Source: Bdellovibrionales bacterium
Lineage (GTDB): Bacteria; Pseudomonadota; Alphaproteobacteria; UBA9219
Direction of reading: 5' to 3'
NCBI GenBank assembly: GCA_040275305.1
Contig: JBEOJY010000022.1
Coordinates: 3,455-67,454 of the forward strand
Length of the DNA: 64,000 nt
The notes below the pieces were generated by a model. That model was not told the origin of the DNA and did no database searches. It saw only the letters and a program-made list of their open reading frames with translations. Shown here in pieces: positions 2,621 through 54,652 of this stretch. The position numbers and the translations under genes were made by a program. Position 1 is the first letter of the stretch. Every line of letters starts with the position of its first letter.

Positions 2621-4702
2621 TCAATGGTTGGTCTGGCGGCGCAGGAAGGCAGGAATGTCCAGAACATCCGAGGATTCGTCCACCGAAGACGGCGCATGAT
2701 CAACCGATGCGGCGCTGATTCCAGATGGTTCTTTCGGCGCAGTTGCGTCTCTTGCTCCCGGACTGCCTTCTTCCTCTTCCATGTCGTCTTTGTGCGCGGA
2801 GGGTCGCACGAGGCCGAAGCCCGTGATGCGCGTGAACAAGGATTCCGAGCGGCGCATCCGACGCTGCTCCGAGACGGAGCCTGAGCCTTGCGGCGGCACA
2901 GGGGTCAGGCGCAAATCGTAACCGCTGTGGCCGCCTGACGACGCGGCGGGTGATGGCGCGGACTGGCTGCCCGACGCCGTCATCGGCGAGATTCTGGTCG
3001 GCGGCGGCGGTAGTTGCGTCGCTGGCGCGGAAGCCGTTGCCGCTGTTGGGGATGCGGCGGAGCGCATGGAAGCCCCTAACGCGCTGCGGCCTAGCGGCGA
3101 CGCAGACGAAGACTCCAACGCCCCGGACGTCACAGACTCCTGACTCGCGCGCGACATGCTTCCCAACGTTCTGGGCGTTACCGTTTGCGGGCCTGAAGTC
3201 ATTCCGGCAGACGCCACCATTTTTTCCGGTTCTTCGCGGTAGTCCGTTTCTTGCCGCATTCTCGGCTCGGCTGCCCGTTCCTGAACTGCCTGCATCGCTT
3301 CCATCGCGGGACGCAGCGATGGCGCTTCAGATTCATGCGGGGATGACGCAGGGGGCATGGTGAAGTAGGGCGTTCTGGCGTTCACAGATGGCGTCATAAC
3401 TTGCGACGTTGGGGGCGGCGATGACGTTGCTGAAGATGTCGCAGTCGCGGATGGGGATGTCGGCGCGGTTGGTTGCTGCGTCGGAACCGAAGAGGAGAGC
3501 GGCGCAGCTGTGTAGGTCGGCGCCGAGGGCCTGAAAGCTGTGGGTATGGTCGTCGTCGGAGGCGACGACGAGGTCTGGGGCATTTGAGGCGTTGCGTAGG
3601 AGGATCTGTGCGTCGATTCCGTGGCTTGCGGCGGCGCTGCGGAAACGGCAGTTGCGCGCGTGGCCACAGGCTCAACGCCCGCGCGCGGGCGCACGGCCAT
3701 CGCGCCGCTTGTCGTCGTACGTGGGAGCGGAACAACGGACACGTCTATGCCGGTCGCTATCACCGAGACGCGGATACGCCCGTCCAAATCCTCGCCCAAG
3801 GTCGAGCCAACCTTGATTTGCGCTTCTGGGTCCACTTCTTCGCGGATGCGGTTGGCAGCCTGATCGACTTCGAACAGCGTCATATCCATGCCGCCCGTGA
3901 TGTTGATCAGCACGCCGCGCGCGCCCTTCATCGACACGTCATCCAGCAGCGGGTTAGAGATTGCGGCTTCGGCGGCGCGGATCGCGCGGTTTTCGCCATC
4001 GGATTCGCCGGTTCCCATCATCGCCTTGCCCATTTCGCTCATCACGGTGCGCACATCGGCAAAGTCGAGATTCATGAAACCCGGCATGACCATAAGGTCG
4101 GTGATGCCGCGCACGCCGCAATGGAGGACTTCGTCGGCCATGCGGAAGGCTTCGGCGAAGGTCGTGCGTTCGTTGGCGATACGGAAAAGATTCTGGTTGG
4201 GAATCACGATGAGCGTGTCGACATATTGTTGAAGCTCGGCAATGCCTTGCTCCGCCTGACGCATGCGGTGCGCCCCTTCGAAATGGAAAGGCTTGGTGAC
4301 AACGCCGACCGTGAGAATCCCCGACTCCCGCGCCGCGCGCGCGATGACAGGGGCCGCGCCTGTGCCTGTGCCGCCCCCCATGCCTGCGGTCAGGAAGACC
4401 ATGTCTGAACCTTCAAGGCACGACAAGATGTCGGCCAGTTGTTCTTCGGCTGCCGCGCGGCCCATTTCAGGCTTCGACCCCGCGCCTAGACCGCGCGAGA
4501 GATTGACTCCAAGCTGAATCTTGCGCGGCGCAAGCGACATGGCCAGCGCCTGAGAATCCGTGTTGGCCCCGATAAACTCGCAACCTTCGAGCTTACAACG
4601 AATCATGTTGTTGATGGCGTTGCCCCCTGCTCCGCCGATGCCCATGACCGTCAAGCACGGACGCAGATTATGTTCAGGATCCGTCATCGACAGGTTCATC
4701 AT
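2621..4702 (-). CDS. ftsZ: Cell division protein FtsZ with a very long S/T/P/A-rich linker
   Basis: [20 protein letters not shown] and NLDFADV motifs; C-terminal [12 protein letters not shown] peptide; SD AAGGAG upstream of ATG 4702. Confidence 0.97.
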
Positions 4703-5127
4703 GTTGCCAATTCTCCTTGCGCTCAGGCCTGATTCAATAATTGTGAAAGTTTGGTGGTTAAATCTTACGCTATGACTTTGATACTGGCTTGATATTCCTT
4801 CTCTGGAATGCCCTAAAGCGGCGCACATCGAATCGCACCCCGATCAAAGCGGTCCTATATCAAACTTTTCCGTCGATTCGCGCAAGAGAAACCGACTGAC
4901 TCCTTAAGTTTTTCTTGATGTCTTTGAAGCGTGTCTTGCCGGAATTGCAGATTCTTCATCATCGTTTTTCGTATCGCGAAAAAAATATTTCCTTGGTTTA
5001 TAATATGCTGAAGAAGACACATCATGCGTTACATGAATTTGTTGTCCCCCGCTCCGGCACGCAAGCTCCGGCGTGGAACCGTCTCTTATTCTGAACGCAT
5101 GACGCTTTCGGCCAAGATAAGTTTTGT

Positions 5128-5352
5128 TATACTCCGTTTCCTTGAAAACACGCAAAAATGGCTGTCATTCCGCAAAATTTTTTTTCGGATTGCGAAGCAA
5201 GCTGATAAGAAAATTTATGCTGAATCCGATGTTTTTCATGGGGTTAGGACAAGATCGGATTCCGCATCTCCGCTTTCCGACCTTCGGTCGGAAGCTTCGT
5301 GCGGAATGACAGCCCTTTTTGCTTTTTCGGGTTTTCAATCGTACAGAGTATA
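5128..5352. mobile_element. MITE-like element (TATAC-TIR family) with CTGTCATTCCGC...GCGGAATGACAG cargo
   Basis: Imperfect TIRs tatactccgtttccttgaaaa / ttttcaatcgtacagagtata. Near-identical copy at 54426..54652. Confidence 0.8.
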
Positions 5353-12428: not shown

Positions 12429-12547
12429 TACTTATCGCAGTTCAAGAGTTGGCAAACATTGACGCAAGACGGGCTAGCTTTAGGACTATTTCCAATTCTT
12501 GAACTGTAATGGGCATACACTTGTTGTGGCGTTGAGGAGTGTTGCGA

Positions 12548-13777
12548 ATGCGCATTTTAGAAACTGGCGACAGCAGTTTGTTTCCGTCCGATCTTGTGCG
12601 CGAGCAGGATTTCATTTTGCGCGTCCGGCGCTTTCAGCGGCTTGGCACTGCGCATTTTATTGCCAATCTTGCCTTGACAAGTCTGGCCCCTCTTGCCAAC
12701 AGCACGCGCTCGCTTGAGGCCGCGCAAGACAAGCTCCGCGAATTTGCCAAAGTTACACGGGGTTTTTTCACCGACATGTCGAACGGGGATGTGTTCATTT
12801 CTTGGGAAGGCAATGCGGATACCCGCACGATCATTTCACGCCTTAGCGACCTGTTGCCCCCGGAGACGACAAAAGCGGGAGACGGAAAGGGGTGGATTTC
12901 GCTTTTTACTCTGCCCGCCGACTATACCAAGCTGCGCGAGCGCGTGAATTACTATGTCGATATCGCGCGCACGCAATCCAAGATCGACGCCAACGGCAAG
13001 CCTTCGCGCATCCTTCAAAGCGAAGCGGCACGGGGGCCTTTGACGGCGTGGAACGTCGATCAGATCGGCAAGCTGCTGGGCGATATCGACCTCAGCCGCT
13101 ATATCCGTATTCAGCCGATTTATAGACGCAAAGGCGAACATAGCTGGGAGTCGGTCAGCGAAGAGTTTTTCATCAGCTTCGAGGAATTGAAGCGCGAGCG
13201 CTTTCCACATGTCGATTTGTCCGCGTCCGAGCATCTGTTTCTCGCGCTGTGCGAAACGCTTGATCAGCAATTCCTGTCGGATCTTTGCTGGCATCGCGAC
13301 TTGATCGAGGGCCGCAATGTCAACCTCAACTTGTCGATCTCTTCGGTTGTCGGCAACGTCTTCACCCAATTCGCCCACGGCATCCCGCACGGCCAGCGCG
13401 CGCGTATTTGCTTCGAGATCCATCGCGGCGATTTGTTTCAGGATTTCACGCGCACGATGGGCGTTTTGGACACGCTCAAGAAGGAGGGTTTCCATGTCGC
13501 CATCGACGGCATTACGCCCGACATGCTGCGTTGCCTTGACGTGACCGCGCTGGGCGCAGATTTTATTAAGATCAATGTTTCCCGCGACCGCGCCGCGCTG
13601 GTTTCAGAGTCTGCCGTACTTAAGAAGATGGCGTTGATCCCTCCGGAGAAGCTGGTTTTTTTCCGTTGCGACAACAATCAAGCGCTGGAGGCAGGCGTCA
13701 AGCTCGGTATCACGCTGTTTCAGGGGTGGTTGATCGACGACGACGCGCATCCGCATCCGGAAAAAACAAAAAAATAG
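12548..13777 (+). CDS. Degenerate EAL-domain protein
   Basis: C-terminal IQPIY, NLNLS, CFEIH, GFHVAIDG and DFIKI align with the EAL barrel; EAL and DDFGTG motifs are altered. SD GAGGAG before ATG 12548. Confidence 0.7.
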   Translation: MRILETGDSSLFPSDLVREQDFILRVRRFQRLGTAHFIANLALTSLAPLANSTRSLEAAQDKLREFAKVTRGFFTDMSNGDVFISWEGNADTRTIISRLSDLLPPETTKAGDGKGWISLFTLPADYTKLRERVNYYVDIARTQSKIDANGKPSRILQSEAARGPLTAWNVDQIGKLLGDIDLSRYIRIQPIYRRKGEHSWESVSEEFFISFEELKRERFPHVDLSASEHLFLALCETLDQQFLSDLCWHRDLIEGRNVNLNLSISSVVGNVFTQFAHGIPHGQRARICFEIHRGDLFQDFTRTMGVLDTLKKEGFHVAIDGITPDMLRCLDVTALGADFIKINVSRDRAALVSESAVLKKMALIPPEKLVFFRCDNNQALEAGVKLGITLFQGWLIDDDAHPHPEKTKK

Positions 13778-17254: not shown

Positions 17255-18508
17255 ATGTCTGTACGCCTTCTGGTTTGTTCCCTCTTGTGCTGTGTCGTTG
17301 CCTTGGCGGGCTTCTTGCCAGCGCGAGCTTATGCACAAAACGCGGTTGACAACACCAACGCTGTGGCCACGAGCCTTAATGCTGGGACGGGCACAGCAAC
17401 AAGTATCGGAAATTCGGCAGGAACAACAGTCAATGGCCCTGCCACGATCAACGGCACGCTTTCGCAAACCGGCAATACCAGCATCAACACTTCCGGGGTG
17501 GGCACAACCACAATCGGCGATTCGGTAAACACCACCAATATTCAAAGCATCACCACGAATATCGGGGCGGGCACAGACAGCAACGCAATCAACATTGGAA
17601 ACTTAAACGCCACAAATACCATCAATGGCACCACCAGCATTAATAACAATGTCAACGCCAACACAAACATCAATACGGGATCCACTTCCGGAAACGTGAG
17701 CATCGGGGGCACGGGCAACACGACGACTATTCAGAGCGCCGTCGCCCGTATCGGAGCAGGCAGTAGTTCGACATCCACCACTATTGGAAATTCAGTTTCC
17801 GGGACGCTGGTTCAGCTTCAAAGCAACAATGCAAGCGTTTCTGTCAACAGCACCAGCGTTGGTTCCGGCATCACGGGGGGAACGGCCACAGTAGGAAGCG
17901 GTACGACCTCTTCGCAGTCTTATCTTGCAAACAGTGGAGGCGCTGGCGTTCAGATTGGCAGCAACGGTCATCTGACTTCAGCCACAACCTCGGAGGCGAC
18001 CGCAGCAATGGTGGTTACTAATGGCATTGGCAACATGCACGGTTTTGTCGTTACGGAACACGCTGCCGTTGTGTCTGGCGGCACGACATCAAACAGCATG
18101 ACCATTAACGACGATGGCGCAAGTTTTGCGAACAGCGACACAGGCGCGCCGATCAAAGTTACAGGCGTCGCGAACGGCACGAGCCAGTACGATGCAGCAA
18201 ATTATGGGCAAGTTTCCAGACTGACGAGTTCCGTTAATGATCTTGATAACAAAGTCGATACGCTTCACAAGAACATGGCAGGCGGCATCGCATCGGTCGC
18301 CGCAATGTCCGCGCTTCCCGGTTTGGAAAAAGGCAAAAAGTACGCTATCGGGATGGGAACAGGTTATTTCGATTCTCAGGCAGGTTTTGCGCTTGGTTTT
18401 ATCGGTCGTTTCAACAAGAAGGTTGTCGGCAGAATCGGCCTTGCAATGTCGCCTACTTCGCCGGAGACAAACACCGTAGCAAATGCTGGCATTTCCTATG
18501 CTTGGTGA
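17255..18508 (+). CDS. YadA-like trimeric autotransporter adhesin
   Basis: Signal peptide; N/T/S/G-rich beta repeats; neck IKVTGVANGTSQYDAANYGQ; coiled-coil stalk; anchor GGIASVAAM...G.G.F...AGISYAW. Confidence 0.9.
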   Translation: MSVRLLVCSLLCCVVALAGFLPARAYAQNAVDNTNAVATSLNAGTGTATSIGNSAGTTVNGPATINGTLSQTGNTSINTSGVGTTTIGDSVNTTNIQSITTNIGAGTDSNAINIGNLNATNTINGTTSINNNVNANTNINTGSTSGNVSIGGTGNTTTIQSAVARIGAGSSSTSTTIGNSVSGTLVQLQSNNASVSVNSTSVGSGITGGTATVGSGTTSSQSYLANSGGAGVQIGSNGHLTSATTSEATAAMVVTNGIGNMHGFVVTEHAAVVSGGTTSNSMTINDDGASFANSDTGAPIKVTGVANGTSQYDAANYGQVSRLTSSVNDLDNKVDTLHKNMAGGIASVAAMSALPGLEKGKKYAIGMGTGYFDSQAGFALGFIGRFNKKVVGRIGLAMSPTSPETNTVANAGISYAW

Positions 18509-26025: not shown

Positions 26026-26131
26026 CTGATGCCCGCCTGCGCGGGCATGACAGGATTTCGGCAAATATCGTCCATTAATCCCGGCGTCACACCCGTCCCC
26101 GCCTCCGCGAGGACAGGCTCCGGCGGGTGTC
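26026..26131. repeat. REP-like composite repeat
   Basis: gatgcccgcctgcgcgggcatgac plus a 46-bp core (26086..26131) identical to 42614..42659. Confidence 0.85.
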
Positions 26132-26387
26132 TCATTTTTCTGTATAGTTATGCAAGAAGTCTAATGACGGTCCTTTCGGCGTTTTTCAGGGGAAGCGTGG
26201 TTGGGGAAATTTGTGCGTTGCAGCGGAGTGGCCTACCAGATGTGGCGTGGTCGCGTTTTTGTTCCCAGTCGTACTCATATTGTTCTTCTTTAGTTCTATT
26301 TTATGGTTGCATAACGTTGCTTGCCTGAAACTAGTAGTTAATTGATTTTCCTTGATATTTACACATTATTATCACTCTTTTCCTTGA

Positions 26388-37004: not shown

Positions 37005-37499
37005 TCAGGTTGTCAGCTCCGAAGTCTGTGTTCTTGTATTATAGTGGTTACGCAAAATATTCAGGTCAGGCTCCTGGATTGCAGGAAATTTTAGGGTGAT
37101 CAGCCTGCGGAGTTCTTCAAAACTAAATTTTATTTTTATCCCTTTATGTTGCTCGTCTTGTGCCAGTATTTTTTGCGCTGGAGTAGAACGATTTTCAACA
37201 AGTTCACTAGCTGCGTGCGCGAAGGCGATTACAGGAAACCCAAGGGCGTGAGCTTCTAGGTAGAGGCTTTGCCTCTCGGTTTCGTCGGTAGTCGGGATCA
37301 ATTTCGTATTCCGCATGCCCTGAATTTCTGCCCCCCACATTATCGCTTCGAGGCGGCGCACAACACCATTCACCTGCGTATTTATTGCGTTACTGCATAT
37401 TTCAGCTACCTCTTGCCAGCTTTTGGGGTCACCGCCTTCGATGTGACTAACCGCTGTTTTCATGTATAGAGGCAATTCTATGTTGTTATGCTTAATCAT
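37005..37499 (-). CDS. Orphan protein, paralog of 37613..38383
   Basis: AT-richer ORF with SD AAGGA; shares PKSW, EA.M.GA and AFA.AA.EL motifs with its neighbour. Confidence 0.7.
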   Translation of the reverse strand: MIKHNNIELPLYMKTAVSHIEGGDPKSWQEVAEICSNAINTQVNGVVRRLEAIMWGAEIQGMRNTKLIPTTDETERQSLYLEAHALGFPVIAFAHAASELVENRSTPAQKILAQDEQHKGIKIKFSFEELRRLITLKFPAIQEPDLNILRNHYNTRTQTSELTT

Positions 37500-37612: not shown

Positions 37613-38383
37613 TTATTGCATGATGTATTTCTGGTTTACTTTTCCGGATCGCACGATTGCGTAGACCGTCCTCAACGGCTCTTCGCAGAGTTGGTCAACA
37701 TAACCGCTGTATTTTTTGATGCTTGCCATGACCTGATGAAATGGCACATTGTTTAATTTCTGATAGGTTGTTTGATCAATACCCCTCAAAATTTCTTGTC
37801 GGTCCAGACTGCTTGCCACATCGGCATTGGATGGAACATTGGGATTGGGTATGTTCGCATGTGGCTGATGCAATTCTGTCAGCCTGTTTGTCAATTCGTT
37901 CGCGGCAACAGCGAAGGCCCTGACCACTTCTCCAACGCCTAATGCCATTTTGCAGTTATTTCTTCTGTCTTCGTCCGATGAAAAGCTGGCGGCATCTTTG
38001 GCGCGCATCAACACATCAGCGCCATACATGCTGGCTTCTGCAATGTCCGCGTATTGTTGCTCACCGCAGAGCGAGAACAGTGTTTGAAAGGAGTCCGGCT
38101 TCAAATAGAAGCGTTTGACGATCCCACAGATTTCATGACTGCTGTGATTGCGCAAAGCTTCGGCATTTTGCGCAATCGCGCTCCATGATTTGGGTGATAA
38201 TGCGCAAATCCTGTCAATTATCCTTGCCGCGCTGATTGCGTAAAGCGTTTCGTATGCCTCTCTTCTGTACGCAAATGTTTCTCGATCTTGGGAATTGTTA
38301 TTAACTTCCATGTCAGTCTTTCCAATCTCATGGCATACAATATTCATGCGCGCATCATATGTATGATCATTTACTTGCGGCAC
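37613..38383 (-). CDS. Orphan protein, paralog of 37005..37499
   Basis: 256-aa ORF sharing ordered motifs with its neighbour. Confidence 0.72.
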   Translation of the reverse strand: MPQVNDHTYDARMNIVCHEIGKTDMEVNNNSQDRETFAYRREAYETLYAISAARIIDRICALSPKSWSAIAQNAEALRNHSSHEICGIVKRFYLKPDSFQTLFSLCGEQQYADIAEASMYGADVLMRAKDAASFSSDEDRRNNCKMALGVGEVVRAFAVAANELTNRLTELHQPHANIPNPNVPSNADVASSLDRQEILRGIDQTTYQKLNNVPFHQVMASIKKYSGYVDQLCEEPLRTVYAIVRSGKVNQKYIMQ

Positions 38384-38704: not shown

Positions 38705-40183
<1,479 letters not shown>

Positions 40184-40422
40184 TCAGGGGCTTGTCCCCT
40201 TGCGGGACTGGTTAACGATGGCGAGGATATATAGCTTAATTTTGTCGTCCATGCCAAGGAGAATTAATAATTTCGACACAGGCTTTTTGTTCGCCATGAC
40301 AACTATTTTGCGCGCCATCTCCGCAAATTAACCACCCCATATTCATGGAACCAAACTAGTTCACATTAACTGTTTCCATTTTATTCTATTTGCTTTCATG
40401 TATTTATGTAAAATCTACTTCT

Positions 40423-42480
40423 ATGGCTACAAAACAGATAGAAAAAATCTTCAGCCTTATCCGCGCGTCGCATTTTCCGACTTGGATAAAGCACCGTTCA
40501 GCGCTCACGGAGGAGTCCCTTCAAGCAGCGTTGCTGAAAATTTGGGGGAAGAATCCGCAAGACATTTCCCAGAACGAATTCCAACGCATTCATGACGCGC
40601 TGCAAATTGCTACGGAAATTAAGAAGCTGCGTGGCATCGGATTTGAACATTTACTTTCTTCCGATCCCCAAACAGGTATAGAAACGCTGGCGATTCTCAG
40701 CAAACGCGAAACAAATCCGGACAGGCGCGCATCAGAATGCGACATCATCGCCATGATCCTGAGCGATTATCTGAGGGTCATCGAAGGGCTTCAGAATAAG
40801 CCTGTGGAAGCACAGAGGGAACAAATTAACTCATTATTCGATAAGATTTTTGCCCCGAGTGCAGATATTACGGATGTTTTTCTTTCATTTCCGACTGTTG
40901 GCACGTGTATTAGCTCTGAAAAATCTATTCGTTCGCTCAGAAGCACCCCCAATATCGAGAAGATACGCAAGCTGACAAAGGCTTTGATTCGAGTCAGCAC
41001 GATCAATCTACTCGAACGCAGCTGCGCACGCGAAGTATCAAAAAGAAAAGGCTGCGCGAATTATCGTAAAGCGCGTTACGAAGCCTTTGACCACATGGTC
41101 GCGGGAATCGTTGACAAGCACGAATCCACGATTCTTATTCGTGGCGCACAGAAACTCATTCAGGCGCAAAACAGGCTTAGACAACAAGGGCTGCATAAAG
41201 AAGACAGGGATGAACTTCTTTCCGAGCTGGAAGGAATCTATATTCCTCTTTCCGAAGCGTATCATTACAACGCGCTTGCGAAATCGCTTAAGGACCTTGT
41301 GTTCGAGGCCAGAGAACCAGAGGTTTACAATAGGTTCAAAGATACCGCCCTTCAGGCAGCCAGAGCTTGCGTTCCTGAGGAACGTAGAAAATGCATCAAT
41401 GATATGGCTTCGGCGGAAGGCATGGTCTGTTCCTATGTTGAAGCGCTGTTTAAGGAACGCATACAGGAACACTATCGCAGTACTTGCGTTGTCGAAGTTC
41501 GGCTTAAGAATCTTTCGGATGTACGGAATAAACTTGCCCACAAAGATCGTGCGCACGCACGGGATTTTATTGGCGCGCGCATTGTCGTTAAAATCCCCAA
41601 TAGCGAGAGACTTAACCCGCGGGAACTCGCCGCGAGAGAGAAACAGGCCGTTACAGAAATTTATAATGCGTTGTTGCAGCCGACAGTCGCTACATCCCGC
41701 AATAGCATAAGCAGCTTTACCCATGCCGATGCCGATGCCATGCGGCGATCTTCCAATCCCCTTGCTGAGTGGTACAGCACCATAACAGACGACGACAGGG
41801 TTGCGAAGAAACCCCCAAGCGGGTGTTGCAAGCAGGCAAAAAAGAAGCGTCCCAATCTTGGCGAGGGCGTTTCAGCATCATCCAATGCTGATGATGGGCT
41901 CACAATCGCCAAAACTGATTTTTTTGACGATTATCTTACCTATCCGCGCCCAACGGGTTATCAGGCTCTGCAAAATATTCTTAAAATTGGGGATGGCGTC
42001 TGCGAGGTACAGGTTGTCGGGCACGAGATGCGCAAGCGTAACGAGAGTGGCAATGCAGACCATGCGGTCTACGCGCAAAAAAGGAGGGGCGGGGTTACAG
42101 TCGATCCTTCGTCCGCTGCCTACACCACGTCCATATTTGTTCTTGAGACGGCTTCCCATGTCTATGACAATGATATCGTCGTCGTTTCAAAAGGCGATAG
42201 CGTCGCGGATTTTTTGGCTAGAAAACCTGAAGACTTTTTTGCGGCAACCTATGTCACGGTGGAGCGCAGCGATGATTCCTCAGTTCCAACCAACGCCAAA
42301 GATGCCCTTAAAACCCTACTTTCCTCCGGCGACCGCGTAGTATTCGAAGGAAATGCCGAACGGCTTACGTCACGCGAGCACAGAGAATCCTTGATCGAGG
42401 AATGGGGCGCTCATCTATCCCCAGCTCTGCGTAATGGCCTTATGGAGTATCATCACCGACTTGGTTCACCCCAACCATAA
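40423..42480 (+). CDS. Divergent RelA/SpoT homolog (hydrolase-dead, synthetase-like, TGS-like; no ACT)
   Basis: RLKNL, DFIGARIVV, FFDDY..YPRPTGYQAL, EVQV, E.GNADHAVY; HD-region remnants AMILSD and LEGIYIPL; TGS-like IFV...GDSVADF...L.SGD.V. Confidence 0.82.
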   Translation: MATKQIEKIFSLIRASHFPTWIKHRSALTEESLQAALLKIWGKNPQDISQNEFQRIHDALQIATEIKKLRGIGFEHLLSSDPQTGIETLAILSKRETNPDRRASECDIIAMILSDYLRVIEGLQNKPVEAQREQINSLFDKIFAPSADITDVFLSFPTVGTCISSEKSIRSLRSTPNIEKIRKLTKALIRVSTINLLERSCAREVSKRKGCANYRKARYEAFDHMVAGIVDKHESTILIRGAQKLIQAQNRLRQQGLHKEDRDELLSELEGIYIPLSEAYHYNALAKSLKDLVFEAREPEVYNRFKDTALQAARACVPEERRKCINDMASAEGMVCSYVEALFKERIQEHYRSTCVVEVRLKNLSDVRNKLAHKDRAHARDFIGARIVVKIPNSERLNPRELAAREKQAVTEIYNALLQPTVATSRNSISSFTHADADAMRRSSNPLAEWYSTITDDDRVAKKPPSGCCKQAKKKRPNLGEGVSASSNADDGLTIAKTDFFDDYLTYPRPTGYQALQNILKIGDGVCEVQVVGHEMRKRNESGNADHAVYAQKRRGGVTVDPSSAAYTTSIFVLETASHVYDNDIVVVSKGDSVADFLARKPEDFFAATYVTVERSDDSSVPTNAKDALKTLLSSGDRVVFEGNAERLTSREHRESLIEEWGAHLSPALRNGLMEYHHRLGSPQP

Positions 42481-42552: not shown

Positions 42553-42660
42553 GGATGCCCGCCTCGCGGGCATGACGCTTGTTTTTATTGAGAAGTTTTT
42601 CTCAACAGGCGCTGTCACACCCGTCCCCGCCTCCGCGAGGACAGGCTCCGGCGGGTGTCC
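42553..42660. repeat. REP-like composite repeat
   Basis: ggatgcccgcctcgcgggcatgacg plus a 46-bp core identical to 26086..26131. Confidence 0.85.
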
Positions 42661-42814
42661 CATTTAGTATTTGCGCCTTCCTGATGGGTTTTTTGGCAAA
42701 CTGTTAATTTATTCGCTCACCTTAAACAGGTTGAGATTTGCGCTGGAAGCAAGTACCTGTTGTCCATGATCCTTTATGTCTGGACATATCTTTAACACAC
42801 CACAGCGATACGCC

Positions 42815-52644: not shown

Positions 52645-52872
52645 GGTTGCGAAGCTCATCGAGCTATGTTGCGCCCCATCAAAACTTTTCAGATTATAGC
52701 AGGATAGAATAACGCGATCGCGGGAATTTGGCATTGTTGTCGCCAAGAGTAACAAGGCAACATGGCGATAGGATTGCCGTTTTACTTTTTGTTTCAGTTT
52801 TTAATCGCTCTGCGGCTTGATTCTTCGCCTCTTCCTTGAGGATTGCGAAGCCTACTCACAATCGCGTTAACT

Positions 52873-53173
52873 TATACTCCGTAGGATTGGAAAGCCGAAA
52901 ACGCAACAAGGGCCGTCATCGCGAAGAGCCCTCTTCGGGCGACGACGCGATCCAGAGTCGGCGGCGATGTCCTGTGGGATTCTGGATTGCTTCCGCCGTC
53001 GTTGCTACGCAACTATGGCGGACAGGTCGCCCCCAAGAAGGGGGCTCGCAATGACGGTCCTTGCGGGAATCTCCTCGCGATTGACGGCCCTTCTGCCAGG
53101 ATTGTCTTTCATGAGCCACAAGAAGCGCTTTCCGGGCCAGTCATTTTTCGGGTTTCCAATCATACGGAGTATA
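52873..53173. mobile_element. MITE-like element (TATAC-TIR family) with cargo inverted relative to 49805..50114
   Basis: 29-bp TIR tatactccgtaggattggaaagccgaaaa / ttttcgggtttccaatcatacggagtata with two mismatches. Confidence 0.85.
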
Positions 53174-53240
53174 CCCTACACGTTAACGCATTGTTGGATA
53201 ACAAAACTTATCTTGGCCGAAAGTCTCATGTGTGGACGGC

Positions 53241-54007: not shown

Positions 54008-54425
54008 GGTTGATCTCCTTTGATACTGGCTATTCGGTTGCGTGATAGTTTCCAAATTTCGCGATGCGCTTGCGCCGCCCTGCGGCAAAGAAGCGGGAGA
54101 TGTTGCATCTTTCCGTTTTCTTTGCGCCGGTTTTCGCTTCGCTTTCGCTGGCGATTGCTCTGATCTTGACGACATGTGCCTCCATCGACCTGCACATTAC
54201 GGTTATTTGAGCGCCTTGACATTTTCCCCATGTGGAAACTTGCCCTTGGGAGACAGGGCCCTTTGTCGGATCATCTGGATTGACCCTGACCGCATCTGCT
54301 TGCTCTGGAACGCACTCAGGCGATTCTTGCAACCGCTCCGACACTTCACGCTCCTTTCTTCATGCTGCGTTGCAACATGGTAAATCCGCTCTTCCAACTC
54401 GTCAAGTGTCCTTACGATTTTTAGT

Positions 54426-54652
54426 TATACTCCGTTTCCTTGAAAGCACGAAAAAGGACCGTCATTCCGAAAAATTTTCTTTTCGGATTGCGAAGCAAGC
54501 TGATAAGAAAATTTATGCGGAATCCGCTGTTTTTCATGAGGTTTGGACAAGATCGGATTCCGCATCTCCGCTTTCCGACCTGAGGGGTCGGAAGCTTCGT
54601 GCGGAATGACAGCCCTTTTTGCTTTTTCGGATTTTCAATCGTACAGAGTATA
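54426..54652. mobile_element. MITE-like element (TATAC-TIR family), direct copy of 5128..5352
   Basis: Aligns end to end with 5128..5352 apart from scattered substitutions and a small indel. Confidence 0.85.

What the first reader, a model, noticed from the sequence alone, without database searches (positions are those of the whole stretch)
40423..42480. Hydrolase-dead, truncated RelA/SpoT homolog with a synthetase insertion, divergent from guaB
Seen: synthetase motifs are present (RLK, DFIGARIV, FFDDY, P.P.GYQ, EVQ, E.G.A.H..Y). The hydrolase region is traceable but its catalytic motifs are lost (LHD to LSD, DRLHN to QKLIQ). About 80 S/K-rich residues, including CCKQAKKKRP, are inserted before FFDDY. 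GYQSLH reads GYQALQ and EIQIRT reads EVQVVG. A TGS-like domain follows, with no ZFD or ACT. The gene is AT-richer and REP-flanked. Established: the canonical alphaproteobacterial Rel/SpoT is bifunctional and full length; divergent synthetases (toxSAS) can make (pp)pApp or pyrophosphorylate tRNA; GuaB is a (p)ppGpp target. Inference: an extra monofunctional alarmone synthetase with possibly altered specificity, acting as a toxin, effector or GTP-pool regulator. No antitoxin is evident beside it.
Basis: partly seen in the sequence, partly recalled or inferred. Interest (0 to 1): 0.78.

Follow-up and report, generated by a model that had tools for sequence, protein, structure and literature searches.

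The report
Fast-evolving hydrolase-dead Rel paralogue
The gene encodes a shortened, hydrolase-dead copy of the bacterial stress-alarm enzyme Rel that keeps its synthetase active site; it belongs to an undescribed, unusually fast-evolving family in uncultured Alphaproteobacteria, probably an extra alarm-nucleotide maker rather than a mobile toxin.

Summary
ORF 40423-42480 (+, 685 aa) is a long RelA/SpoT homologue with a pseudo-hydrolase domain, a synthetase domain split by a 77-residue disordered insertion, and a TGS-like domain. It has no zinc-finger or ACT domain. It is AT-richer than its neighbours and divergent from guaB. Only the downstream flank carries a repeat element.

It is not a lone oddity. 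About 20 clusters of 520-700 aa proteins from uncultured Alphaproteobacteria share the architecture. All lack the hydrolase motifs. All keep the ATP-, Mg2+- and acceptor-stacking residues. They separate from canonical Rel/RelA/SpoT in 100/100 bootstraps.

One member lies between rpoZ and a canonical, hydrolase-intact rel. So the family is a paralogue that can coexist with Rel. Whether this genome has a canonical rel could not be tested.

The gene evolves very fast. Flanking genes are 85-94% identical between three related genomes, while this gene is 47% and 25% identical.

The guaB adjacency is specific to this lineage. Most members sit just downstream of a highly conserved 79-aa gene near the hprK-rapZ-PTS cluster. 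There is no antitoxin, defence-system or mobile-element context.

Best reading: an accessory, ribosome-independent, monofunctional alarmone synthetase. Its product and its trigger are unknown.

The parts
40172..40422 (.). 251-bp AT-rich divergent spacer between guaB (-) and the RSH gene (+). It presumably holds both promoters. It contains no repeat element.
40423..42480 (+). Complete gene for the 685-aa hydrolase-dead, truncated long RSH (stop codon included).
40423..40557 (+). N-terminal 45 residues: poorly conserved; residues 1-27 have pLDDT below 50.
40558..41322 (+). Pseudo-hydrolase (HD-fold) domain, residues 46-300. All three catalytic motifs are lost. The helical cores (46-125, 216-300) are the best conserved part against the orthologue P0002 (68-76% identity, dN 0.19). 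Loops 151-163 and 197-211 are disordered.
41323..41484 (+). Helical linker between the pseudo-HD and synthetase domains (residues 301-354).
41485..41682 (+). Synthetase domain, N-terminal half (residues 355-420). It holds R360, K362 and K370 (ATP phosphates and adenine stacking), D381 (Mg2+) and R386 (adenine stacking).
41683..41913 (+). 77-residue S/A/D/K-rich insertion (residues 421-497; CCKQAKKKRP at 468-477). It is mostly disordered, 23% identical and 27 residues longer than in P0002. Insertions at this and neighbouring loops vary across the family.
41914..42090 (+). Synthetase domain, C-terminal half (residues 498-556). It holds FFDDY, a G-loop of canonical length with Y513, E528 and Q530 (catalytic) and H547 (ATP ribose). 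Deviations: H517Q, QIRT to QVVG, AExG to NESG.
42091..42357 (+). TGS-like beta-grasp domain (residues 557-645). The conserved His of the canonical HT/HS motif of the TGS domain (consensus AVHTDvG) is absent. It is fast-evolving: 31% identity to P0002.
42358..42480 (+). Two C-terminal helices (residues 646-685) that align with the start of the canonical helical domain, then the stop codon. No ZFD/CC or ACT/RRM domain.
42554..42665 (.). Hairpin-rich intergenic repeat element downstream of the gene, with terminator-like stems. A second copy lies at 26028-26137.

Best explanation
The gene encodes an accessory paralogue of the stringent-response enzyme Rel. It belongs to a previously undescribed, fast-evolving subfamily of long RSH proteins in uncultured Alphaproteobacteria.

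Shown:
- The fold is pseudo-hydrolase + synthetase + TGS-like domain.
- The hydrolase catalytic residues are gone in every member.
- The residues that bind ATP, Mg2+ and the acceptor base are kept.
- The ribosome-docking C-terminal domains are absent.
- The family can coexist with a canonical bifunctional Rel.

Inferred:
- The protein is a monofunctional pyrophosphokinase. It transfers the beta,gamma-pyrophosphate of ATP to the 3'-OH of a purine nucleotide, most likely GDP or GTP, to give (p)ppGpp.
- It is not switched on by starved ribosomes. Its own pseudo-HD and TGS-like/helical tail, and an unknown ligand or partner, hold it in check or release it.
- Its product is cleared by the hydrolase of the genome's canonical Rel.

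The guaB neighbourhood is a lineage-specific relocation, not a functional module.
For: Architecture:
- AlphaFold model with the 14-sequence alignment: pLDDT 74.6, pTM 0.74.
- Foldseek top hits are full-length SpoT 7qpr (E 3e-10, 665 columns), B. subtilis Rel, ribosome-bound RelA and Rel N-terminal regions.
- The family profile against PDB sequences gives RelA 132 bits (E 2e-37), small synthetases RelP/RelQ and their homologues 28-48 bits, and CapRel/FaRel2 20-23 bits.
- TGS by hhalign: 97.2% probability.

Family: a profile search of 1.84 billion cluster representatives found 13 proteins at E<1e-10. About 20 proteins of 520-700 aa share the architecture.

Active site: the invariant or nearly invariant columns in a family with 21-27% pairwise identity are R360, K362, K370, D381, R386, Y513, E528, Q530 and H547. 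These match the residues that stack the adenine, bind the phosphates, coordinate Mg2+, contact the ribose and stack the guanine in S. aureus RelP and RelSeq (PMC5794853; PMC7983052). The synthetase halves are the most conserved regions family-wide.

Hydrolase: all three HD motifs are lost in all 20 members.

Paralogy:
- The family separates from 37 canonical Rel/RelA/SpoT sequences in 100/100 NJ bootstraps.
- On contig L142 the order is rpoZ, family member P0009, marC, then a canonical rel N-terminus with intact RxSGDPYxxHP, LLHDTIED and DRL motifs (202 bits, E 1e-60).

Selection: dN is 0.19 in the pseudo-HD cores and 0.37 in the synthetase domain. Genomic dS is 1.05-1.7 (neighbour genes have omega 0.03-0.09). 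This indicates purifying selection on the catalytic core and not pseudogene decay.

Not a TA or defence module: no co-directional small partner gene and no PADLOC hit.
Against: - No activity data exist for any family member.
- Several positions that contact the acceptor nucleotide differ from all characterised (p)ppGpp synthetases. These are the Arg-Thr of EVQIRT (family-wide), A335 to Asn (family-wide), N306 to Thr, and the GYQSLH His to Gln (here and in P0022, P0089, P0097). The Ser that contacts the ATP alpha-phosphate is displaced by one position (S365, D366). The enzyme could therefore be weak, inactive or use another acceptor.
- A canonical rel in this genome was not found; the window has no other RSH.
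- The extreme divergence between syntenic orthologues (25-47% against 85-94% for flanking genes) and the low GC3 are unusual for a housekeeping regulator. They fit conflict-type genes better.
- The structural model rests on only 14 sequences.
Confidence: 0.6

Rival explanations
1. It is a conflict-type sensor-effector. The family would be a chromosomal, single-chain analogue of fused toxSAS systems such as CapRel. A rapidly diversifying regulatory module (TGS-like domain, tail, insertion) would sense an invader or competitor cue. It would then release a synthetase with a remodelled acceptor pocket that makes (pp)pApp or pyrophosphorylates tRNA and arrests growth.
For: - Three genomes with 84-94% identical flanking genes carry alleles only 47% and 25% identical at the same guaB|glmM slot.
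- dN of the TGS and tail region is 0.77, against a genomic dS of about 1.1-1.7.
- Low GC3 holds in all lineages.
- Distribution is patchy, in three different intergenic slots and in either orientation.
- Acceptor-pocket substitutions are family-wide.
Against: - No PADLOC hit for the window protein.
- Neighbours are housekeeping genes, not defence islands or mobile elements.
- The family profile is much closer to RelA/Rel than to CapRel or FaRel2.
- Family-wide, the TGS-like domain is no more variable than the pseudo-HD.
- The G-loop has canonical length with the stacking Tyr.
Confidence: 0.2
2. It is a catalytically silent pseudoenzyme. It would be retained as a nucleotide-binding or protein-binding regulator, for example of the canonical Rel or of the PTS/HPr-kinase pathway next to which most members lie.
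For: - In the window/L001 pair the pseudo-HD cores are more conserved than the synthetase domain (68-76% against 59-63%).
- Ser-to-Asp, His-to-Gln and RT-to-VG changes lie in the synthetase motifs.
- Pfam only marginally recognises the domain.
- At least 10 members sit beside hprK-rapZ-EIIA-HPr-ptsI and the 79-aa gene.
Against: - Every residue known to bind ATP and Mg2+ and to stack the acceptor is invariant or nearly so across about 20 very divergent members. That is hard to explain without catalysis.
- The synthetase halves are the most conserved regions family-wide.
Confidence: 0.12
3. It is this genome's only long RSH: a degenerate direct descendant of Rel. (p)ppGpp removal would be left to a small alarmone hydrolase or be absent.
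For: - No other RSH lies in the 64-kb window.
- The GTDB scan found only the family gene in MAG HIE bin45, but that MAG may be incomplete.
Against: - It does not group with canonical Rel.
- P0009 lies beside an intact canonical rel.
- The family gene was found beside the 79-aa gene in only 5 of 28 loci from genomes that carry that gene.
- The rate of change is far above that expected for a sole stringent factor.
- Canonical Rel is near-universal in Alphaproteobacteria (PMC3153485).
Confidence: 0.06
4. It is a secreted effector delivered to a eukaryotic host. The basic KKKRP stretch in the insertion would act as a nuclear-localisation signal.
For: - It is one of several low-GC, fast-evolving orphan-like genes among housekeeping genes.
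- A YadA-type adhesin lies in the window.
- The insertion contains KQAKKKRP.
Against: - No secretion-system genes or signal were seen.
- The basic stretch is not conserved even in the closest orthologue.
- By my reading of the sample identifiers, which I did not check, many relatives come from peat, soil and water metagenomes.
- The family is vertically syntenic with core genes.
Confidence: 0.02

Closest known systems
RelA of Beta- and Gammaproteobacteria (monofunctional [hS] long RSH)
   Same: - A degenerate HD domain precedes an intact synthetase and a TGS domain.
- The same position of the HD dyad is lost (RelA LLFP, family ILYP, here ILSD).
- The acceptor-side motif has the acidic xxDD form (EFDDY in RelA, FFDDY here).
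- RelA is the best PDB sequence match (132 bits).

   Different: - RelA has the helical, zinc-finger and ACT/RRM domains that dock it on the ribosome, plus a conserved TGS motif (HIHSDVGH in E. coli RelA; from my own knowledge, a His in this region recognises the tRNA 3' end). This protein lacks all of these.
- RelA keeps EIQIRT and AExG.
- The family separates from RelA in the tree (100/100).
- The family occurs in Alphaproteobacteria, which normally have a single Rel (PMC3153485).
- RelA evolves slowly; this family does not.
Canonical alphaproteobacterial Rel/SpoT (bifunctional [HS], encoded after rpoZ)
   Same: - Same superfamily and N-terminal fold.
- One family member (P0009) lies in the rpoZ-rel locus itself. 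This suggests origin by duplication of rel.
   Different: - Hydrolase motifs are intact in Rel and absent here.
- Rel is about 700-760 aa with the full C-terminal region.
- No BLAST similarity is detectable between P0009 and the canonical Rel N-terminus on the same contig.
Truncated or degenerate long RSHs described by Atkinson et al. 2011 (actinobacterial RshC; plant Rsh2/Rsh3)
   Same: RshC is cut within the helical domain and keeps the TGS domain. Some plant RSHs have a degraded HD, and Rsh3 has an insertion between SYNTH and a remnant TGS (PMC3153485).
   Different: - RshC is listed as [HS], with its hydrolase intact, and is actinobacterial.
- The plant forms are plastid proteins.
- Neither is known from Alphaproteobacteria.
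toxSAS toxins (FaRel, FaRel2, PhRel, CapRel) and Tas1
   Same: They share the RSH synthetase fold. Divergent acceptor pockets are associated with non-(p)ppGpp products. CapRel is a single chain with a fast-evolving C-terminal sensor.
   Different: - toxSASs are single-domain proteins with no HD or TGS.
- They are encoded with antitoxins or in defence or secretion loci.
- Here there is no partner and the context is housekeeping.
- The family profile matches them only weakly (20-23 bits), and PADLOC finds nothing.

Membership tests
RSH superfamily (RelA/SpoT synthetase domain, PF04607) | Significant match to the synthetase-domain profile or fold | tested here: met
   Pfam gives 27.4 bits against a cut-off of 27, covering only the C-terminal half. 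The family profile against RelA gives 132 bits, E 2e-37. Foldseek to Rel, RelA and SpoT gives E 1e-7 to 3e-10.
RSH superfamily (RelA/SpoT synthetase domain, PF04607) | Catalytic and ATP-binding residues: R-x-K...K, D....R, G-loop Tyr, E-x-Q, His | tested here: met
   R360, K362, K370, D381, R386, Y513, E528, Q530 and H547 are present and family-invariant. They were mapped on SaRelP and RelSeq residues. The alpha-phosphate Ser is shifted by one position.
Long RSH (HD + SYNTH + TGS ...) | HD-fold domain N-terminal to SYNTH, and a TGS domain C-terminal to it | tested here: met
   The model aligns over 665 columns with full-length SpoT. Relatives hit Pfam HD_4. TGS by hhalign has 97.2% probability.
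Long RSH (HD + SYNTH + TGS ...) | Full C-terminal region: helical, zinc-finger/CC and ACT/RRM domains | tested here: not met
   The protein ends about 40 residues after the TGS. The alignment with 12 canonical sequences shows nothing beyond the first helices.
Bifunctional Rel/SpoT | Hydrolase catalytic motifs (RxSGxPYxxHP, HDxxED, DRLHN) | tested here: not met
   The three motifs read IGFEHLLSSDP, ILSDYLRV and QKLIQAQN. All 20 family members lack them.
Bifunctional Rel/SpoT | Groups with canonical Rel in a phylogeny; encoded directly after rpoZ in Alphaproteobacteria | tested here: not met
   The family splits from 37 canonical long RSHs in 100/100 bootstraps. Here the gene lies between guaB and glmM. 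rpoZ directly precedes rel in 11 alphaproteobacterial loci.
RelA (ribosome-dependent stringent factor) | The conserved His-containing motif of the canonical TGS domain (HIHSDVGH in E. coli RelA; tRNA 3'-end recognition is from my own knowledge), plus ribosome-binding ZFD and ACT domains | tested here: not met
   The canonical motif (consensus AVHTDvG) has no counterpart in the family TGS-like domain. ZFD and ACT are absent.
toxSAS toxin-antitoxin module | Single-domain SAS in a conserved two- or three-gene operon with an antitoxin | tested here: not met
   The protein is multidomain. There is no co-directional small ORF in the 251-bp upstream or 295-bp downstream spacers. Neighbours differ between lineages.
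Known anti-phage defence systems (PADLOC-DB 2.0) | Match to a defence-system protein model | tested here: not met
   No hit for the window protein. Relatives P0008 and P0003 hit only the generic RelA/SpoT-like model PDC-S33 through the synthetase domain.
(p)ppGpp synthetase activity | ATP:GTP/GDP 3'-pyrophosphotransferase activity | not testable with these tools
   This needs a biochemical or in vivo assay. Acceptor-pocket positions differ from characterised enzymes.

The most novel reading that the evidence does not exclude
The family would be a new class of long-RSH signalling or conflict protein. It would be a hydrolase-dead Rel duplicate whose regulatory parts diversify so fast that alleles at one syntenic locus are only 25% identical. 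Its remodelled acceptor pocket (Asn for Ala335, loss of the Arg-Thr of EVQIRT, Gln for His) would make a non-canonical product such as (pp)pApp, pGpp or a pyrophosphorylated RNA end. It would respond to a cue other than ribosome stalling, possibly phage or competitor attack, or a signal from the PTS/HPr-kinase pathway.
Probability: 0.2. Interest if true: 0.8.

Novelty: new variant of a known kind. Interest (0 to 1): 0.58.

Why it matters
Alphaproteobacteria are the textbook case of one bifunctional Rel per genome. Synthetase-only long RSHs are known from the RelA/SpoT split in Beta- and Gammaproteobacteria.

This family would be an independent second case of a Rel duplicate losing its hydrolase. 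Unlike RelA, it also lost the ribosome-sensing domains and evolves many times faster than the genome around it.

That raises two testable questions: what switches on a long RSH that cannot read the ribosome, and what does its altered acceptor pocket make. The recurrent position beside a highly conserved 79-aa gene and the hprK-rapZ-PTS cluster gives a concrete lead for a regulatory input.

For annotation, it shows that proteins labelled only 'HD domain-containing protein' can be hydrolase-dead alarmone synthetases.

Tried and rejected
- The word-indexed homologue search with the single protein found only itself and one relative.
- The same search with the 14-sequence alignment and with ValS timed out.
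- The GTDB genome scan with the two closest sequences found nothing. The 14- and 7-sequence alignments had no searchable conserved stretch. The scan with five other members returned mainly canonical Rel genes and only one true family member, MAG 'Pseudomonadota bacterium HIE bin45'.
- AlphaFold with the two-sequence alignment was unusable (pLDDT 42). The 14-sequence alignment was needed.
- rpoZ hypothesis for the conserved 79-aa upstream gene: rejected. It has no Pfam, NCBIfam or PDB match, and true rpoZ genes look different.
- Operon with the 79-aa gene: not supported as obligatory. Only 5 of 28 loci with that gene carry the RSH gene next to it, two of them in the opposite orientation. In the window the two genes are 10 kb apart.
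- guaB functional link: rejected as a family trait.
- Defence-system membership: no hit.
- dN/dS for the gene itself: dS is saturated, so only dN against the dS of neighbouring genes could be used.
- Literature searches found no description of this family. The supplementary tables of Jimmy et al. 2020, which name their 13 long-RSH subfamilies, are not held. I therefore could not exclude that one of those subfamilies corresponds to this family.
- Organism identity: the nearest named RapZ relatives, at about 60% identity, are almost all labelled 'MAG: Alphaproteobacteria bacterium'. No genus could be assigned.
Full report
**1. What is at the coordinates.**

The ORF listed as 40390-42480 (+) has an in-frame ATG at 40423 that gives 685 aa. 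The only close relative in 5.8 billion clustered proteins, P0002 (47% identity), begins with the same Met-Ala-Thr.

guaB (38705-40171, -) is divergently oriented across 251 bp. glmM starts 295 bp downstream.

The gene has GC 0.49 and GC3 0.50. guaB and glmM have 0.60 and 0.69-0.70.

The downstream spacer contains a hairpin-rich element (42554-42665) with a second copy at 26028-26137. The upstream spacer has no repeat, so 'REP-flanked' is half right.

**2. Fold and domains.**

- Pfam sees only the C-terminal half of the synthetase domain, at the cut-off (27.4 against 27 bits). PDB sequence hits with the single protein are weak.
- A profile search of 1.84 billion cluster representatives recovered a set of distant relatives.
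- With 14 of them as alignment, AlphaFold gave a usable model (pLDDT 74.6, pTM 0.74). Foldseek matches it to full-length SpoT (7qpr, E 3e-10 over 665 columns), B. subtilis Rel, ribosome-bound RelA and several Rel N-terminal regions. Small alarmone synthetases match far behind.
- The family profile scores 132 bits (E 2e-37) on E. coli RelA and 129 bits on T. thermophilus Rel. It scores 28-48 bits on the small synthetases RelP/RelQ and their homologues, and 20-23 bits on the toxSASs CapRel and FaRel2.
- The C-terminal 130 residues align to the TGS region of canonical enzymes (hhalign 97.2%, E 4.8e-11). The protein stops two helices later, so the helical, zinc-finger and ACT domains are missing.
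- Residues 421-497 are an insertion between the helix that follows the D381 strand and the G-loop strand. Residues 422-432 and 453-493 are predicted disordered. The insertion is 23% identical and 27 residues longer than in P0002.

**3. Catalytic residues.**

In an alignment with 12 canonical long RSHs, the three hydrolase motifs are replaced:
- RxSGxPYxxHP becomes IGFEHLLSSDP.
- LLHDxxED becomes ILSDYLRV.
- DRLHNMRT becomes QKLIQAQN.

The same loss is seen in all 20 family members, typically as I-L-Y-P. E. coli RelA has L-L-F-P there.

The family-invariant or nearly invariant columns are R360, K362, K370, D381, R386, Y513, E528, Q530 and H547. In S. aureus RelP:
- the adenine of ATP is stacked between R78 and R112;
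- the phosphates are held by K80, K88 and S84;
- Mg2+ is bound by D107 and E174;
- the ribose is contacted by H190;
- the guanine stacks on Y151 (PMC5794853).

RelSeq uses R241/R269, D264/E323 and Y308 in the same roles (PMC7983052). By alignment these are the invariant family columns. In a family with 21-27% overall identity, this is the signature of a retained pyrophosphokinase site.

Differences from canonical enzymes:
- The Ser is displaced by one position (S365, D366).
- RxKD reads FFDD (RelA: EFDD).
- The Arg-Thr of EVQIRT is lost family-wide.
- The Ala that contacts the guanosine (RelSeq A335) is Asn family-wide.
- N306 is Thr here.
- The His of GYQSLH is Gln here and in P0022, P0089 and P0097, but His in P0002.

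The donor site looks intact. The acceptor site is remodelled.

**4. A family, and a paralogue of Rel.**

An NJ tree on 461 columns separates 20 family members from 37 canonical Rel, RelA and SpoT sequences in 100 of 100 bootstraps. P0001, P0002 and P0007 group together in 84 of 100.

The only source annotation for any member is 'HD domain-containing protein [Pseudomonadota bacterium]'.

The decisive context is contig L142. Its order is rpoZ, family member P0009, marC, then the N-terminus of a canonical rel with intact hydrolase motifs (202 bits, E 1e-60), cut by the contig end. In 11 alphaproteobacterial loci fetched here, rpoZ sits directly before rel. So the family gene lies inside the ancestral rel locus.

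This shows the family coexists with a bifunctional Rel in at least one genome. It also suggests origin by tandem duplication, which is an inference. For the window's own genome, a canonical rel is inferred and not shown. The window contains no second RSH.

**5. Genomic context.**

Three contexts occur:
- guaB | RSH | glmM in the window, L001 and L140. L140 has the GuaB N-terminus at 26/28 identical residues and glmM at 85% identity.
- rpoZ-RSH-marC-rel in L142.
- In at least 10 other members, the gene lies 130-290 bp downstream of a 79-aa ORF. That ORF is 84-95% identical across all these genomes. It sits next to a FlgC-like small gene and the hprK-rapZ-EIIA(Man)-HPr-ptsI cluster, or next to SHMT and ruvABC.

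The window has the 79-aa gene at 51932-52171, next to hprK, rapZ, EIIA, HPr and ptsP. It has no RSH gene beside it.

Starting from the 79-aa gene, 5 of 28 metagenomic loci with enough flank carry a family gene next to it, two of them on the opposite strand. The gene is therefore an accessory occupant of a few intergenic slots. The guaB adjacency is lineage-specific.

The RapZ of the window has only three relatives at 84-86% identity. After that come about 60% matches, almost all of the named ones labelled 'Alphaproteobacteria bacterium'. The organism is a poorly sampled, uncultured alphaproteobacterium.

**6. Rate of evolution.**

| Comparison | Flanking genes (aa identity) | RSH (aa identity) |
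|---|---|---|
| Window vs L001 | GuaB 94%, PtsP 90%, GlmM 87%, RapZ 86% | 47% |
| Window vs L140 | GlmM 85% | 25% |
| L082 vs L083 | SHMT 83%, RuvB 81% | 32% |
| L084 vs L085 | RapZ 72%, TsaD 71% | 31% |

Neighbour genes have dN 0.04-0.09 and dS 1.05-1.7. The RSH gene has dN 0.44, and its dS is saturated. By region, dN is 0.19 in the pseudo-HD cores, 0.37 in the synthetase domain, 0.56 in the variable segments (N-terminus, pseudo-HD loop, helical linker and the insertion) and 0.77 in the TGS-like domain and tail.

GC3 is lower than in neighbours in every lineage, most strongly in L142 (0.445 against 0.70-0.76) and L140 (0.55 against 0.84).

The core is under purifying selection, so this is not a pseudogene. 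The gene as a whole changes 5-10 times faster than its surroundings. The 25% allele at a locus whose flanks are 85% identical suggests either episodic acceleration or replacement by a divergent allele.

**7. Interpretation.**

The best-supported reading is an accessory, monofunctional, ribosome-independent alarmone synthetase. It is a Rel duplicate that lost its hydrolase and its ribosome-sensing domains but kept a working ATP/Mg2+ site. (p)ppGpp is the default product, and the canonical Rel would remove it.

Rivals:
- A conflict-type sensor-effector with altered product. This is favoured by the rate, the low GC and the pocket changes. It is disfavoured by the housekeeping context, the lack of any partner or defence hit, and the closeness to RelA/Rel over toxSASs.
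- A silent pseudoenzyme. This is disfavoured by the invariant catalytic set.
- The sole RSH of the genome. This is disfavoured by L142, the phylogeny and the patchy distribution.
- A secreted effector, for which there is little support.

The core call of a hydrolase-dead extra synthetase with possibly altered specificity stands.

**8. Novelty.**

Atkinson et al. 2011 list Alphaproteobacteria as Rel[HS], sometimes with Mesh1 or capRel. They describe C-terminally truncated long RSHs only in other groups (PMC3153485). Jimmy et al. 2020 count 13 long-RSH subfamilies, whose names I could not access. No paper describing this family was found.

I therefore rate it a new variant, that is a new subfamily, of a known kind. 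The caveat is that it may already sit unnamed in a classification table.

Noticed in passing
window 51932-52171 (+); also L082-L086, L089-L139, L141, L143, L144: A 79-aa ORF (MAQEFEARYASSSTDETLERLVAMTNQTNLVALDK...) is 84-95% identical across more than 50 contigs whose RapZ and TsaD are only 60-72% identical. It has no Pfam, NCBIfam or PDB match. It is more conserved than the housekeeping genes around it. It is the usual upstream neighbour of the RSH family gene.
   Followed up: partly
window 51420-51644 (-); L084 6994-7404 (-): A lone small FlgC/rod-like gene (74 aa in the window, about 135 aa elsewhere) lies between hprK and the 79-aa gene. No other flagellar genes are nearby.
   Followed up: partly
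window 37005-37499 (-), 37613-38383 (-), 44188-45789 (-): Three further low-GC (0.46-0.51) ORFs without secure family matches are interleaved with GC-rich housekeeping genes. ORF 37613-38383 has a 25%-identical counterpart beside guaB in L001 (dN 0.9). ORF 44188-45789 has weak hits to N-terminal asparagine amidohydrolase and TPR. They share the RSH gene's fast-evolving, AT-rich character.
   Followed up: partly
window 49804-50115 and 52872-53174; 5122-5352 and 54420-54652; 26028-26137 and 42554-42665: These are interspersed intergenic repeat families (88-98% identity). One pair lies on either side of the hprK / FlgC-like / 79-aa gene segment. In other members of the family the RSH gene lies just downstream of the 79-aa gene, so these repeats may mark the rearrangement that moved it.
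   Followed up: no
L142 1116-4075: marC lies between the family RSH gene and the canonical rel. The family gene has GC3 0.445, and rpoZ, marC and rel have 0.70-0.76, all within 4 kb.
   Followed up: partly
L140 292-2376 compared with window 40423-42480: At the same guaB|glmM slot, a genome with 85%-identical GlmM carries an allele only 25% identical (P0007). That allele also has a more degenerate synthetase C-terminal motif (EIQV followed by a gap).
   Followed up: partly
window 17255-18508 (+), 12539-13777 (+), 2621-4828 (-): Other genes noticed: a YadA-anchor trimeric autotransporter-like protein, an EAL-domain protein with a long unassigned N-terminus, and an unusually long FtsZ (735 aa).
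   Followed up: no
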